Source: a virus
Lineage: Duplodnaviria; Heunggongvirae; Uroviricota; Caudoviricetes
IMG/VR virus record: IMGVR_UViG_2778261162_000002
Span: 1-8,789 of that record
Direction: 5' to 3' (one strand)
DNA: 8,789 nt
Shown: piece by piece, positions 3,265 to 5,515 of the stretch
How the letters are laid out: the number at the start of each line of letters is the position of its first letter
Position numbering within the stretch: the first letter of the stretch is position 1
Translations under genes and position numbers: made by a program
The notes under the pieces: generated by a model
Database searches by the model: none
What the model was told of the DNA's origin: nothing
Seen by the model: the letters and a program-made list of their open reading frames with translations, nothing else

Positions 3265-3275
3265 AAAAACCCCAT

Positions 3276-3297
3276 AAAAAAACCCGCCGAAGCGGGT
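3276..3297 (-). terminator. Rho-independent terminator, minus-strand orientation, at the 3' end of the accessory cassette
   Basis: Plus strand 3276-3297 is aaaaaaa-cccgc-cgaa-gcggg-t. On the minus strand this is a 5-6 bp GC stem with a cgaa-type tetraloop followed by seven T. It sits 12 nt upstream of the spike gene start codon. Confidence 0.6.
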
Positions 3298-3308
3298 CAG
3301 ATTTGATG

Positions 3309-3521
3309 TTACTTTCTTTTAACATTAACAGGGCGATTACCACCAAAGCTTTCAAATACTACCTTTCCAGGCGGAACTGTTAAAGATGAGTCGTATCCTT
3401 CCCTTTCAACCGAGTTACCTGGTAATTCTTTGTGAGAATAACAATCTCCATCATGTGATTTCTTTTCTCTAATGAACCCAAGGTTATCTTTAGGTGCATG
3501 GACTGGCTTTTTAGTACTCAT
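3309..3521 (-). CDS. Hypothetical small basic protein, 70 aa (accessory cassette gene 3)
   Basis: ATG at 3521-3519 preceded by a strong RBS (minus strand TAAGGTGAAATATG), with the TAA of the preceding membrane-protein gene embedded in the RBS. Lys/Arg-rich, no hydrophobic segment, no motif I recognise. AT-rich codon usage unlike the tail genes. Confidence 0.5.
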   Translation of the reverse strand: MSTKKPVHAPKDNLGFIREKKSHDGDCYSHKELPGNSVEREGYDSSLTVPPGKVVFESFGGNRPVNVKRK

Positions 3522-3529
3522 ATTTCACC

Positions 3530-4087
3530 TTATGTAAATCTTATTAATAAAAAACTTATCAGGAAGATAATGAAGGACCAAGCCCCAAAAAGCATTGCTT
3601 CGGAACCTTTCTGTATTACGGCTACTTTTTCTTTGTGAACTTCATCAAGTTTATCAATGAAGTCAGTGTAACTACTTGCAAATGAACTCATTGAGTTTTG
3701 TCGCGGGTTACCCATAAAAAAGTCGATAATACTTGCATCGGTTGCCGGTCTCATACCTTCACGAGGTTGCATTGCACTAAAAACAAATCCCCATGAAATA
3801 AGAAAAAAGACAAAAAACAGAGCCAGTGACAACCAGCATAGAACCCTTGGGGGAGTAATTTCTGATACAAAAATATAGCTATCCCAATAGCGAACTATCA
3901 ACATAGAAATAGTAAGTATGACGTTGATTGAACCGAAAATTTTAGTCGCTTTATCCTCTAACCTACGTAACGATGTTAGTGCAAACTCATATTGTTTTTG
4001 TTGATAATCAAAAACAAATTTCGCCCGCTCAATCCATTCTTTCTGATCGTCGGTAGGGGCTACAGATTTAGGGTTACCTGTGCTCAA
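3530..4087 (-). CDS. Hypothetical integral membrane protein, 185 aa, three predicted TM helices (accessory cassette gene 2)
   Basis: The ORF begins at TTG (4087-4085), preceded by AAGAGAG about 7 nt upstream, with no in-frame ATG until about codon 62. The TTG overlaps the TGA of the upstream secreted-protein gene (minus strand TTGA). Hydrophobic segments at about residues 49-65 (IFGSINVILTISMLIV), 82-103 (VLCWLSLALFFVFFLISWGFVF) and 164-182 (AMLFGAWSFIIFLISFLLI), with a charged N-terminal region and a central ~55-aa loop. Markedly AT-rich. Confidence 0.6.
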   Translation of the reverse strand: MSTGNPKSVAPTDDQKEWIERAKFVFDYQQKQYEFALTSLRRLEDKATKIFGSINVILTISMLIVRYWDSYIFVSEITPPRVLCWLSLALFFVFFLISWGFVFSAMQPREGMRPATDASIIDFFMGNPRQNSMSSFASSYTDFIDKLDEVHKEKVAVIQKGSEAMLFGAWSFIIFLISFLLIRFT

Positions 4088-4449
4088 TTAGAAACTCTCT
4101 TACAGTCATAAGTCGCATACTGACGCGGCGCGTCCATACTGGCTTGCAACCACTGGGCGTTGAGAATGGCTTTACCGTTACGCTTGATGTATTCCAGCCC
4201 TACCCAACGGCCGGGCTGGTTGGTTGCAACCGTCCATTCCATCTTCAGATTTTGATAATCTTCCTTTTCTTTCAGAAAGGTCATTTTCTGGTTTTCAGGC
4301 TTTGCACCGTTAATGTGCATCAAACCATCGTTCCCTGCGGTCAGACGAAAAGGCCCACACTGAGTGTCCGCTAAAGCAGACGAAGCACCAACAAAAGCTA
4401 AAGCTAAAGCTAAAGCTACGCCGCAAATAACATTGCTGATTTTTGTCAT
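4084..4449 (-). CDS. Hypothetical secreted/periplasmic protein with N-terminal signal peptide, 121 aa (accessory cassette gene 1)
   Basis: I place the start at ATG 4449-4447, one nt after the hub gene TAA (4453-4451), with AGGT 5 nt upstream, rather than at the track's upstream TTG at 4509, which would overlap the hub gene. The N-terminus MTKISNVICGVALALALAFVGASSALA|DTQ is a classic signal peptidase I signal (K n-region, Ala/Leu h-region, ALA cleavage motif) with no lipobox. The mature ~94-aa protein has two Cys (C31, C116) placed to form a disulfide. Confidence 0.65.
   Translation of the reverse strand: MTKISNVICGVALALALAFVGASSALADTQCGPFRLTAGNDGLMHINGAKPENQKMTFLKEKEDYQNLKMEWTVATNQPGRWVGLEYIKRNGKAILNAQWLQASMDAPRQYATYDCKRVSN
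4394..4417. repeat. Perfect hexanucleotide tandem repeat (aaagct)x4 inside the signal-peptide coding region
   Basis: Plus 4394-4417 is aaagct aaagct aaagct aaagct, encoding the ALALALA core of the signal peptide h-region on the minus strand. Confidence 0.6.
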
Positions 4450-4450
4450 G

Positions 4451-5515
4451 TTATACCTGTACTTTTTGAAGCGTCGACTGGCTATAAAGTTCACGAGACC
4501 CACGCGCAAAACACATTAAATCCATGTACCACGTCTGGCCTCTGGTGTCGCCAGTATAGTCGATAGCTTTGACGATATAAATGCCATCTGTCGCAATGCT
4601 GGCTGCCTGTGACGTCGTGCCGGTCAGCACGCGGTTGCCGTTCTCTTCTGTTTCGGTGATACTCCCGGGCGACTGAGCGATTTCGCTATTGCCAAGCGCG
4701 GCGCGGTAAACTGAAGCCTGATCGAGCTGGATAAGACCATTAATGCGGATGTTCGGGTTTATCAGGCACCGCACGTTTACGCCGCCGCCCATCGTCTGCT
4801 GCGGCATACCGATCAGGCCAGTATCGGCATTTAATACAATGGCTTCGTGAATATACTTATCCTCCGGCACCATCTGGACCTGTCCATCCACCAGCTGCCA
4901 TGTCGCTTTGCACTGCGCAGCAATATTATCCATCACGTTGCGGCTGGATGAGTAAATCGCGCGGCCACGAGGAAACACGGTATCAGGAAAATCGCCGGTA
5001 ATGCCCTGTGTCACGCCGAACGCGTTGAAATCCTGCATCGTCGCCCGGTGCAGATCCGCAACGGTATAGCCAGCGGCAAGCGTAGTGATGGTAGTCGCGT
5101 AGAGGAACGCTTCGTGATCTCCAATAGCCTGAATCAACACCCAGGAATCGGTAATGTTGTCCTTCCCGGTTACGGTAAAGCGAATATCACCGTCAAAAAT
5201 CAGGCCGTAGTTCTGACCGTTCACCTGCCCTATCTGGTCTGGTGAAATCTCTCGGGCGACGCCAACCTGGCTAGCATCAACATCCGGCGCTATACCGTCA
5301 TACCCGGCAATGATGCGAATTTTGGCAAACTCCTGCCCCAGTATCTTGTTCGTGGTATCGGTCGAAAGGTTGTAAATTTTCACGTTCGCCACGCGCGGCC
5401 AGCGTGTGTCTGCCCACTCGATCTGGAACGTGACCTTAAAGTCAGACAGGGAAACGCCCTGCCCGTTCTGGTCCAACAGTTGCAGCTCAAAATGGCGCAT
5501 CCAGTTAAGAGACAT
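4451..5515 (-). CDS. Baseplate hub-like protein (gpD / Mu gp44 / gp27-like by position), 354 aa
   Basis: Complete ORF, ATG 5515-5513, 2 nt after the TAG of the upstream gene. Size and location (after the tape measure and small tail proteins, before the spike) match hub proteins. Functional call is positional; no diagnostic motif recognised. Confidence 0.65.
   Translation of the reverse strand: MSLNWMRHFELQLLDQNGQGVSLSDFKVTFQIEWADTRWPRVANVKIYNLSTDTTNKILGQEFAKIRIIAGYDGIAPDVDASQVGVAREISPDQIGQVNGQNYGLIFDGDIRFTVTGKDNITDSWVLIQAIGDHEAFLYATTITTLAAGYTVADLHRATMQDFNAFGVTQGITGDFPDTVFPRGRAIYSSSRNVMDNIAAQCKATWQLVDGQVQMVPEDKYIHEAIVLNADTGLIGMPQQTMGGGVNVRCLINPNIRINGLIQLDQASVYRAALGNSEIAQSPGSITETEENGNRVLTGTTSQAASIATDGIYIVKAIDYTGDTRGQTWYMDLMCFARGSRELYSQSTLQKVQV
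4481..4509 (-). promoter_or_regulatory. Candidate sigma70-type promoter for the accessory cassette, inside the 3' end of the hub gene
   Basis: Minus strand reads TTGCGC (plus 4504-4509), a 17-nt spacer, then TATAGC (plus 4481-4486), about 30 nt upstream of the secreted-protein ATG. Both hexamers are imperfect matches to consensus; this is a weak, by-eye call. Confidence 0.2.

What the first reader, a model, noticed from the sequence alone, without database searches (positions are those of the whole stretch)
3265..4510. Compositionally foreign three-gene cassette inserted between the baseplate hub and spike genes: candidate uncharacterised prophage cargo system
In a conserved structural operon, hub and spike genes are normally adjacent. 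Here about 1.2 kb of mostly AT-rich DNA sits between them and encodes three translationally coupled proteins: a signal-peptide periplasmic protein (4084-4449), a three-helix inner-membrane protein with a TTG start (3530-4087) and a 70-aa basic soluble protein (3309-3521), closed by an intrinsic terminator (3276-3297). None has a structural-protein signature or a motif I recognise. A periplasmic factor, a membrane protein and a small cytoplasmic partner is the kind of architecture seen in superinfection-exclusion, abortive-infection and toxin/immunity modules, and prophage morons are a known source of such cargo. Function is unassigned; this is the best candidate for something new in the window.
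Basis: partly seen in the sequence, partly recalled or inferred. Interest (0 to 1): 0.85.

Follow-up and report, generated by a model that had tools for sequence, protein, structure and literature searches.

The report
Two-gene membrane cargo in prophage hotspot
Between two baseplate genes of an E. coli prophage lies a swap-in slot that in related phages holds known anti-phage systems; here it holds an uncharacterised, mobile pair of genes (a membrane protein and a small partner), while the third gene of the reported "cassette" is a conserved secreted phage protein, not cargo.

Summary
Three tightly coupled minus-strand ORFs (4084-4449, 3530-4087, 3309-3521) and an intrinsic terminator (3275-3298) lie between hub and spike.

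It is not one three-gene insertion.
- The signal-peptide protein gene is a backbone gene of this SEN34/Brunovirus-like myophage group. It follows the hub in every relative examined, including two with an otherwise empty site.
- Only about 805 bp (3298-4102; GC 0.37 against 0.54, z = -5) is swappable cargo: the 185 aa membrane protein and its 70 aa partner.
- The same pair occurs in a lambdoid early region, beside lysis and immunity genes of another prophage, and inside a Mu-like tail operon. In one subfamily the two are fused into a single protein.
- The slot elsewhere carries Phd/Doc, PD-Lambda-1, DUF4236 and several PADLOC candidate systems.

The best reading is a mobile prophage "moron" encoding a membrane-acting exclusion or abortive-infection module controlled by its small partner. 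That function is inferred, not shown. No Pfam, NCBIfam, PADLOC, PDB or viral-fold match assigns a mechanism, and a weak precomputed PycTM label was not reproducible.

It is a new member of a known kind (prophage defence-hotspot cargo). Interest is moderate.

The parts
4451..5515 (-). Baseplate hub gene (left conserved flank of the hotspot)
   Evidence: phrog_196 baseplate hub E 1.7e-82 and Pfam E217_GP41. 94-100% DNA identity to E. coli relatives from window 4550 upward.
4084..4449 (-). Conserved exported protein gene (121 aa): Sec signal peptide plus a roughly 94 aa eight-stranded beta-barrel with two near-invariant Cys. It is a backbone gene, not cargo.
4369..4449 (-). Signal peptide coding part (27 codons, cleavage after A-L-A). 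Contains the (GCTTTA)3 repeat at 4393-4416.
   Evidence: Hydrophobic segment 1-29 and an A-x-A|D motif conserved in homologues.
3298..4102 (.). Swappable low-GC cargo segment occupying the hub-spike hotspot
   Evidence: blastn homology to E. coli relatives with other cargo stops at 3287-3297 and resumes at 4103. GC 0.371, z = -5.0. Present in 4 of 5426 complete E. coli genomes, against 51 with the backbone.
3530..4087 (-). 185 aa membrane protein with TTG start overlapping the upstream stop. Three hydrophobic helices extended by long cytoplasmic helices. Presumed effector.
   Evidence: 16 close homologues; 180 cluster representatives by profile search; phrog_23273 E 1.9e-14. AF2 pLDDT 94.4, helices 13-67, 79-106, 118-126 and 129-184. 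No Pfam, NCBIfam or PADLOC family.
3309..3521 (-). 70 aa hydrophilic basic partner protein with C-terminal motif YDSSLTVPPGKVVFES. Presumed regulator.
   Evidence: A small ORF 8-12 nt downstream accompanies the membrane gene in every context. Motif shared among enterobacterial copies. In one subfamily the free-standing partner is homologous to the C-terminal tail of fused proteins.
3275..3298 (-). Intrinsic terminator (7-bp GC stem, UUCG loop, U-run) at the right border of the slot, 10 nt upstream of the spike ATG
   Evidence: Shared with relatives carrying other cargo.
2626..3264 (-). Baseplate spike gene (right conserved flank). Its N-terminal part is conserved and its C-terminal tip is mosaic.
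   Evidence: Pfam N-terminal spike domain E 2.4e-41 plus Apex motif. Identity profile.

Best explanation
The region has two layers.

Layer 1 is a conserved late-operon gene for a secreted, probably disulfide-bonded small beta-barrel protein. It belongs to the backbone of this SEN34/Brunovirus-like group of temperate myophages.

Layer 2 lies immediately downstream: a recombinational hotspot between that gene and the spike gene. In this prophage the hotspot holds an 805-bp low-GC moron with two co-translated genes, a 185 aa inner-membrane protein and a 70 aa hydrophilic partner.

The pair is a self-contained mobile module that moves between unrelated prophage types, and in some lineages it is fused into one polypeptide.

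Proposed mechanism (inferred):
- The membrane protein is the effector and the small protein (or fused tail) regulates it.
- In a lysogen the module acts against competing phages at the inner membrane.
- It would do so either by blocking genome entry (superinfection exclusion) or by collapsing membrane integrity once infection is sensed (abortive infection).

Shown here: cargo status, site boundaries, mobility, obligate pairing, fusion, membrane-protein architecture, and the defence content of the slot in other species.
Inferred: anti-phage function, effector and regulator roles, and expression in the lysogen.
For: - Boundaries and composition.
- Hotspot behaviour: the slot is 62-69 nt (empty) in L018 and L034 and up to 1.8 kb elsewhere, and its GC is always below that of its locus.
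- Slot occupants in other species include PD-Lambda-1 (E 2.8e-82), PDC-S42, PDC-S57, PD-T4-9_C, PDC-M59B, PDC-S23, Fic/Doc with Phd, T5orf172, EACC1, DUF4236 and a Clp protease.
- The pair sits in the same slot at 43-66% identity in Kosakonia, Rahnella, Yersinia, Serratia and a second E. coli lineage.
- The pair occurs without hub or periplasmic gene in a Citrobacter lambdoid early region, beside holin and repressor genes, and between tape measure and DNA-circulation genes of a Mu-like prophage.
- A terminator-like hairpin follows the small gene in three independent contexts.
- Fusion: the free-standing 61 aa partner of L045 aligns to the C-terminal tails of P0021 (E 1e-7) and P0024 (E 2e-6). 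About 25 of 163 family representatives carry such tails.
- Distant members lie between toxin-antitoxin pairs or among transposases.
- Confident helical membrane model, pLDDT 94.
- Absent from all 50,697 phage records, so it is dispensable for virion formation.
Against: - Location in a defence hotspot is guilt by association.
- No promoter signal above chance. In this phage group the membrane gene abuts the upstream gene, so expression in the lysogen is unproven.
- Homology between the enterobacterial small proteins and the fused tails of distant members is not significant by HMM.
- Topology is unresolved. A simple three-pass topology puts the C-terminus, and therefore the fused tail, in the periplasm, yet the free partner has no export signal.
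Confidence: 0.55

Rival explanations
1. One reading: the periplasmic protein, membrane protein and small cytoplasmic protein form one three-component envelope-spanning system.
For: - In the hub-spike context the membrane gene always abuts or overlaps the stop codon of the periplasmic gene, across five genera.
- The periplasmic gene is much more diverged from E. coli relatives than the hub (75-86% against 90-98% amino-acid identity), and the homology break lies inside its last codons.
- In Serratia a remnant of a second periplasmic-gene copy sits directly upstream of the membrane gene, as if the pair had moved together with the 3' end of that gene.
Against: - The periplasmic gene is present in every relative lacking the pair, including those with an empty slot.
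- The pair occurs without it in three unrelated prophage contexts.
- The composition differs: GC3 0.475 against 0.25-0.32.
Confidence: 0.12
2. The pair is accessory cargo unrelated to phage defence. Examples would be a lysis-timing (holin/antiholin-like) pair, or a lysogenic-conversion membrane protein that alters host envelope physiology or stress tolerance.
For: - One homologous pair lies next to holin genes.
- Small membrane proteins are common morons with host-fitness roles (established knowledge, for example lambda Bor and Lom).
- No defence-family match in PADLOC.
Against: - No holin family match.
- Most copies sit in tail operons far from lysis genes.
- The slot and the neighbourhoods of distant members are enriched in defence and toxin-antitoxin genes.
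Confidence: 0.2
3. An orphan Pycsar-type (PycTM-like) effector: a membrane protein opened by a cyclic nucleotide made by a cyclase encoded elsewhere.
For: - Precomputed weak or faint PF18967 (PycTM) labels on four relatives: P0005, P0006, P0279, P0280.
- The general architecture, a cytoplasmic helical segment plus transmembrane helices of about 170-190 aa, is compatible (from memory).
Against: - PF18967 is not recovered by hmmscan for any of 16 close members (E <= 1) or 74 distant members (E <= 0.01), nor for the labelled proteins themselves at E <= 10.
- No PADLOC Pycsar model hit at E <= 1.
- No cyclase gene in any of about 12 neighbourhoods examined. The constant neighbour is instead the small protein.
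Confidence: 0.07
4. The proteins are structural or assembly components of the baseplate.
For: Position inside the baseplate gene cluster and translational coupling to the hub.
Against: - The pair is absent from 47 of 51 E. coli prophages of this type and from all sequenced phages.
- It has foreign composition, is a membrane protein, and moves to non-tail contexts.
- The periplasmic protein has a cleavable signal peptide and conserved Cys pair, which is incompatible with cytoplasmic virion assembly.
Confidence: 0.03

Closest known systems
Prophage and satellite defence hotspots (P2/P4 hotspots; Rousset et al. 2022, PMC9122126) and classical morons (PMC3594210)
   Same: Conserved flanking phage genes. 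A variable, lower-GC insert that differs between close relatives. Occupants include validated or candidate defence and toxin-antitoxin systems. A terminator closes the unit.
   Different: The site is between the baseplate hub (plus exported-protein gene) and the spike of SEN34/Brunovirus-like myophages. I found no paper describing this site. An own promoter for the cargo was not demonstrated.
Lambda/P22 SieB (with Esc) and lambda RexAB: prophage-encoded inner-membrane exclusion or abortive-infection proteins with a protein partner
   Same: A prophage-borne inner-membrane protein of about 150-190 aa working with a second polypeptide. Internal Met codons at the start of fused tails recall Esc being made from within sieB (from memory).
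   Different: No sequence relationship: hhalign probability 0.1% to lambda SieB and 2% to RexB. Function is untested here.
Pycsar PycTM effectors (PF18967)
   Same: Small multi-helix membrane protein with a cytoplasmic helical part. Weak precomputed Pfam labels on four relatives.
   Different: Fails the family HMM in the current Pfam and in PADLOC. No cyclase partner. It has a conserved small-protein partner or fused tail instead.
HK97 gp15 and T4 Imm/Sp: superinfection-exclusion proteins acting at the inner membrane or periplasm against incoming tails (from memory)
   Same: HK97 gp15 is a moron inside a tail gene cluster encoding a membrane protein. Sp is a periplasm-exposed inhibitor of a tail-tip enzyme, which is a conceivable analogue for the conserved exported beta-barrel in a phage whose tape measure carries an SLT domain.
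   Different: No homology was tested or found. The exported protein here is an eight-stranded beta-barrel, whereas Sp is helical (from memory). Purely an analogy.

Membership tests
Moron (Hendrix/Juhala definition) | Present in some and absent from other closely related phage genomes, at a precise site | tested here: met
   Cargo 3298-4102 is in 4 of 51 E. coli prophages of this type. Empty sites occur in L018 and L034.
Moron (Hendrix/Juhala definition) | Nucleotide composition different from the surrounding genome | tested here: met
   GC 0.371 against 0.543 (z = -5.0). GC3 0.25-0.32 against 0.59-0.67. Met for two genes only; the periplasmic gene is intermediate.
Moron (Hendrix/Juhala definition) | Own transcription unit: promoter upstream and terminator downstream | tested here: inconclusive
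   The terminator is present but shared with relatives carrying other cargo. Promoter-like sites are not above shuffled expectation, and there is no intergenic space upstream of the membrane gene.
Prophage defence hotspot | Conserved flanks with diverse occupants that include known defence systems | tested here: met
   PD-Lambda-1 E 2.8e-82, PDC-S42, PDC-S57, PD-T4-9_C, PDC-M59B, PDC-S23, Fic/Doc with Phd, T5orf172 and EACC1 among 28 occupants.
Known anti-phage defence systems (PADLOC-DB 2.0) | Match of any of the three proteins to a system model | tested here: not met
   No hit at E <= 1.
Pycsar effector PycTM (PF18967) | Score above the Pfam gathering threshold | tested here: not met
   No hit for the window protein, for 16 close or 74 distant relatives, or for the four proteins carrying a precomputed label.
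Pycsar effector PycTM (PF18967) | Adjacent pyrimidine or purine cyclase gene | tested here: not met
   No cyclase in any neighbourhood.
SieB superinfection exclusion (lambda/P22) | Sequence or profile similarity to SieB | tested here: not met
   hhalign probability 0.13%. No Pfam SieB hit.
RexB | Sequence or profile similarity to RexB | tested here: not met
   hhalign probability 2% over 19 hydrophobic columns.
Type II toxin-antitoxin pair | Toxicity of one product neutralised by the co-encoded partner | not testable with these tools
   Only co-occurrence, coupling and fusion of the two genes are shown.
Baseplate or virion structural protein | Conserved in all related phages, or fold of a known baseplate protein | tested here: not met
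   The pair is absent from relatives and from sequenced phages. Folds are a helical membrane bundle and a secreted beta-barrel.
phrog_3443 / 'STY1065/STY2022 family phage-derived protein' (periplasmic gene only) | Profile match, or the RefSeq name on the identical protein | tested here: met
   phrog_3443 E 2e-46. RefSeq product name on WP_042043841.1 in the near-identical locus. NCBIfam release 20 itself returned no hit, so the name rests on the RefSeq annotation.
Sec-exported periplasmic protein (periplasmic gene only) | N-terminal signal peptide with an A-x-A cleavage site, conserved across homologues | tested here: met
   Hydrophobic segment 1-29. A-x-A followed by D and then x-x-C-G is conserved in 8 of 8 aligned homologues. 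Cys pair C31/C116 is near-invariant. No dedicated signal-peptide predictor was available.

The most novel reading that the evidence does not exclude
The membrane protein and its small partner (or fused tail) define a new, widespread family of anti-phage modules: about 180 clusters at 50% identity, occurring in split and fused forms. In this reading a short hydrophilic peptide gates a three-helix membrane effector. In addition, the conserved secreted beta-barrel next to it would be a periplasmic exclusion factor that this phage group uses against incoming tails of its own kind. Its faster divergence than the hub and its tandem diverged duplicates in some genomes would then reflect an arms race.
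Probability: 0.3. Interest if true: 0.6.

Novelty: new member of a known kind. Interest (0 to 1): 0.42.

Why it matters
If the pair is shown to exclude or abort phages, it adds a compact, previously unannotated membrane-effector family to the defence repertoire, with natural split and fused versions that are useful for dissecting its regulation. It would also flag the hub-spike junction of a common group of enterobacterial prophages as a place to mine further systems. The slot already holds PD-Lambda-1, Phd/Doc and several PADLOC candidates. For annotation, the lesson is that the exported-protein gene is phage backbone, while the following slot is cargo.

Tried and rejected
- Family searches for the three proteins in Pfam, NCBIfam and PADLOC gave nothing useful. 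PHROGs gave only unknown-function families.
- PycTM lead: precomputed labels on four relatives could not be reproduced by hmmscan on 16 close members, 74 distant members or the labelled proteins themselves. Rejected as a membership claim.
- Domain fusions in longer family members gave no informative N-terminal domains.
- PDB sequence searches with family profiles found nothing significant.
- hhalign against lambda SieB and RexB was negative.
- An HMM of five enterobacterial small proteins against family tails and 3300 decoys was not significant. My regex motif enrichment was designed after I had seen the tails and is only suggestive.
- Promoter scans were at chance level.
- Boundary repeats: none meaningful. 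Rfam: none.
- Literature searches for STY1065/STY2022, the RefSeq accessions, tail-operon exclusion and Brunovirus hotspots found nothing relevant. The NAR 2026 PycTM paper concerns a cyclase-linked system.
- The third large homology search with the broad alignment was limited by its candidate cap and added little.
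Full report
**Context**

The window is a minus-strand tail and baseplate operon of an E. coli prophage, 98.6-99.7% identical to loci in UPEC 26-1, UPEC957C and isolate AF20. 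The gene order is:
- tape measure with SLT domain (6427-8436)
- Dit-like protein (5825-6427)
- Pam3-gp18-like plug (5518-5823)
- hub (4451-5515)
- the three ORFs of the finding
- spike (2626-3264)
- sheath initiator (2269-2622)
- baseplate J (1069-2268)
- DUF2612 wedge protein (392-1072)

The phage type is that of Salmonella phage SEN34 (Brunovirus), Klebsiella phage Mulock and many enterobacterial prophages.

**Observation check**

The three ORFs, their tight coupling and the terminator are as described, and RefSeq calls the same CDS. The composition signal is strong for 3298-4102: GC is 0.371, against 0.543 +/- 0.034 outside the region (z = -5.0). GC3 is 0.25 for the small gene and 0.32 for the membrane gene, against 0.59-0.67 for the flanking genes. 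The signal-peptide gene is intermediate (GC 0.467, GC3 0.475).

**Anatomy by comparison**

Of 5426 complete E. coli genomes, 51 carry this hub-spike region, but only 4 carry the whole finding or the cargo segment itself. Three relatives were aligned in detail:
- L002 carries DUF4236 on the opposite strand.
- L003 carries a Phd/Doc pair.
- L004 carries other hypothetical genes.

In all three, homology to the window runs from the spike up to 3287-3297, which includes the terminator. It resumes at 4103, 19 nt inside the 3' end of the signal-peptide gene. The exchangeable unit is therefore 3298-4102, containing the membrane gene and the small gene.

I then fetched 28 loci from different species with the periplasmic protein as probe. 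In every locus that gene directly follows the hub. The distance from it to the spike varies from 62-69 nt (empty slots in Rahnella woolbedingensis L018 and Pantoea dispersa L034) to 1805 nt. Slot GC (0.35-0.46) is always below locus GC (0.47-0.54).

Among sequenced phages, 20 of the 23 records with a hub at least 55% identical have the periplasmic gene in the same place, followed by one or two variable genes. Even the distant Burkholderia phage Magia has a reverse-strand gene between hub and spike. So hub and spike are not normally adjacent in this group. The junction is a standing cargo site.

**What the slot carries elsewhere**

Twenty-eight occupants were scanned.
- Pfam finds DUF4236, Fic/Doc, T5orf172/MUG113, Clp protease, EACC1, DUF4282 and DUF7946.
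- PADLOC finds PD-Lambda-1 (E 2.8e-82), PDC-S42, PDC-S57, PD-T4-9_C, PDC-M59B and PDC-S23.
- By eye there are HEPN-like two-gene pairs, an HExxH protein, several small exported or membrane-anchored proteins, and extra diverged copies of the periplasmic gene.

This is the signature of a prophage defence hotspot of the kind described for P2 and P4 (PMC9122126).

**The two-gene cargo**

The 185 aa protein has 16 close homologues, all from Enterobacterales. An exhaustive profile search finds 180 cluster representatives at E <= 1e-3, mostly full-length matches of 165-190 aa.

Contexts in the same hub-spike slot, at 43-66% identity:
- Kosakonia, Rahnella, Yersinia and a second E. coli lineage carry the pair there.
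- Serratia carries it there too, with the partner as an uncalled 66 aa ORF.

Contexts elsewhere:
- the early (nin-type) region of a Citrobacter lambdoid prophage
- next to holin and repressor genes of another prophage
- between tape measure and DNA-circulation genes of a Mu-like prophage
- for distant members, between toxin-antitoxin pairs or among transposases

In every prophage context a 53-70 aa hydrophilic ORF follows within about 10 nt. Enterobacterial copies share the motif (Y/F)DSS(I/L)PVPxGK(V/I)V(T/F)ES. A terminator-like hairpin follows the small gene in three independent contexts.

About 25 of 163 family representatives have a 40-100 aa hydrophilic tail after the third helix. The free-standing partner in L045 is homologous to the tails of P0021 (E 1e-7) and P0024 (E 2e-6). 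This is a split/fused relationship that argues for a physical or functional partnership. For the more distant tails, homology to the enterobacterial partners is not significant. The motif enrichment I measured (5 of 25 tails, against 0.17 expected) used a pattern designed after I had seen the data.

**Structure and family tests**

The AF2 model of the membrane protein is very confident (pLDDT 94.4). Two roughly 55-residue helices (13-67 and 129-184) and one 28-residue helix (79-106) form a bundle. One half of it is hydrophobic (47-65, 77-108, 162-185) and the other half is polar.

K+R counts across 127 family members place the N-terminus and the 105-162 loop in the cytoplasm. That predicts a periplasmic C-terminus, which conflicts with a partner that is fused there in some members and lacks any export signal when free. 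This is unexplained.

No characterised family matches:
- BFVD
- lambda SieB and RexB by hhalign

A precomputed weak or faint PF18967 (PycTM) label on four relatives was not reproducible even at E <= 10, and no neighbourhood contains a cyclase.

**The conserved exported protein**

- It matches phrog_3443 (E 2e-46), and RefSeq names it 'STY1065/STY2022 family phage-derived protein'.
- It has 112 clusters across Enterobacterales, several labelled 'secreted protein'.
- Its signal peptide has a conserved A-x-A|D cleavage site, and it has a near-invariant Cys pair, C31 and C116.
- It diverges faster than its neighbours: 75-86% amino-acid identity, against 90-98% for the hub and 97-98% for the spike N-terminus and sheath initiator in the same genomes.
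- It is tandemly duplicated in some genomes.

These features fit a conflict-related periplasmic role, but that is speculation.

**Interpretation**

The best-supported reading is a conserved exported phage protein followed by a hotspot. In this prophage the hotspot holds a mobile two-gene membrane module, most likely acting in superinfection exclusion or abortive infection, with the small protein as regulator.

Cargo status, mobility, pairing, fusion and hotspot content are shown. The anti-phage function, the division of roles and expression in lysogeny are inferred.

The rivals considered are a true three-component system, a cargo role unrelated to defence, an orphan PycTM-like effector, and a structural role. 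They are weighed in the rival-explanations section, and none is favoured.

**Novelty and score**

Prophage cargo hotspots and membrane-acting exclusion proteins are established concepts. This particular hotspot and this membrane-plus-partner family appear undescribed in the searchable literature. I rate it a new member of a known kind, with interest 0.42.

Noticed in passing
window 4393-4416 (minus strand): A hexanucleotide repeat, (GCTTTA)x3 followed by GCTTTT, encodes Ala-Leu repeats in the signal-peptide core. Near-identical RefSeq loci are 6 nt shorter over 2400-5600 (3195 against 3201 nt), probably one repeat unit gained or lost by slippage.
   Followed up: partly
window 2601-2850 (spike gene 3' part): The spike is mosaic. 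Its N-terminal part is 92-98% identical to E. coli relatives, but its C-terminal part is only about 70% identical, and the protein is 212 aa against 246 aa in relatives. The spike tip appears to be exchanged independently of the cargo slot.
   Followed up: partly
L012 (Serratia) 1905-2798: The slot holds an extra exported 124 aa protein and an 87 aa membrane protein. A frame-broken remnant of a second copy of the periplasmic gene (2576-2798) lies directly upstream of the membrane gene, suggesting cassettes accumulate by recombination within that gene.
   Followed up: partly
L023 4343-4867; L025 1622-2933: Additional diverged tandem copies of the periplasmic beta-barrel gene occupy the slot in Serratia aquatilis and Pseudescherichia vulneris. 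In L025 they come with duplicated hub 3' fragments.
   Followed up: no
L016 3554-4120 (Klebsiella phage ST340-VIM1phi10.1): The slot occupant is a 188 aa protein with an HEAGH (HExxH) metalloprotease-like motif and no Pfam match. A 61 aa ORF lies on the opposite strand.
   Followed up: no
P0029, P0063, P0082, P0093, P0138, P0147, P0149, P0153 and others (family representatives): Fused tails of the membrane-protein family often begin with an internal Met (M-S/T-E/D...) just after the third helix. Fused genes might therefore also yield a separate small product by internal initiation.
   Followed up: no
window 3530-4087 and family alignment A4: Topology conflict. Positive-inside statistics predict a periplasmic C-terminus, yet the partner is fused to that end in some members and has no export signal when free.
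   Followed up: partly
window 150-600: A second, milder GC dip (0.44-0.45) at the junction of the DUF2612 wedge gene and the downstream tail-fibre gene, possibly another mosaic boundary.
   Followed up: no
window 6427-8436: The tape-measure protein carries a C-terminal SLT lytic transglycosylase domain (RefSeq: 'transglycosylase SLT domain-containing protein'). This is a conceivable target for a periplasmic exclusion factor.
   Followed up: no
L002, L021 and 16 of the 30 listed E. coli hits: The commonest occupant of the slot in E. coli is a roughly 96 aa DUF4236 protein with a C-terminal hydrophobic anchor, encoded on the opposite strand. Its function is unknown.
   Followed up: no
NZ_CP016497.1 (UPEC 26-1) positions 989-1793 and 5159704-5162898: The cargo region matches at both ends of this circular record. 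This suggests either two copies of the prophage region or an assembly overlap at the record start.
   Followed up: no
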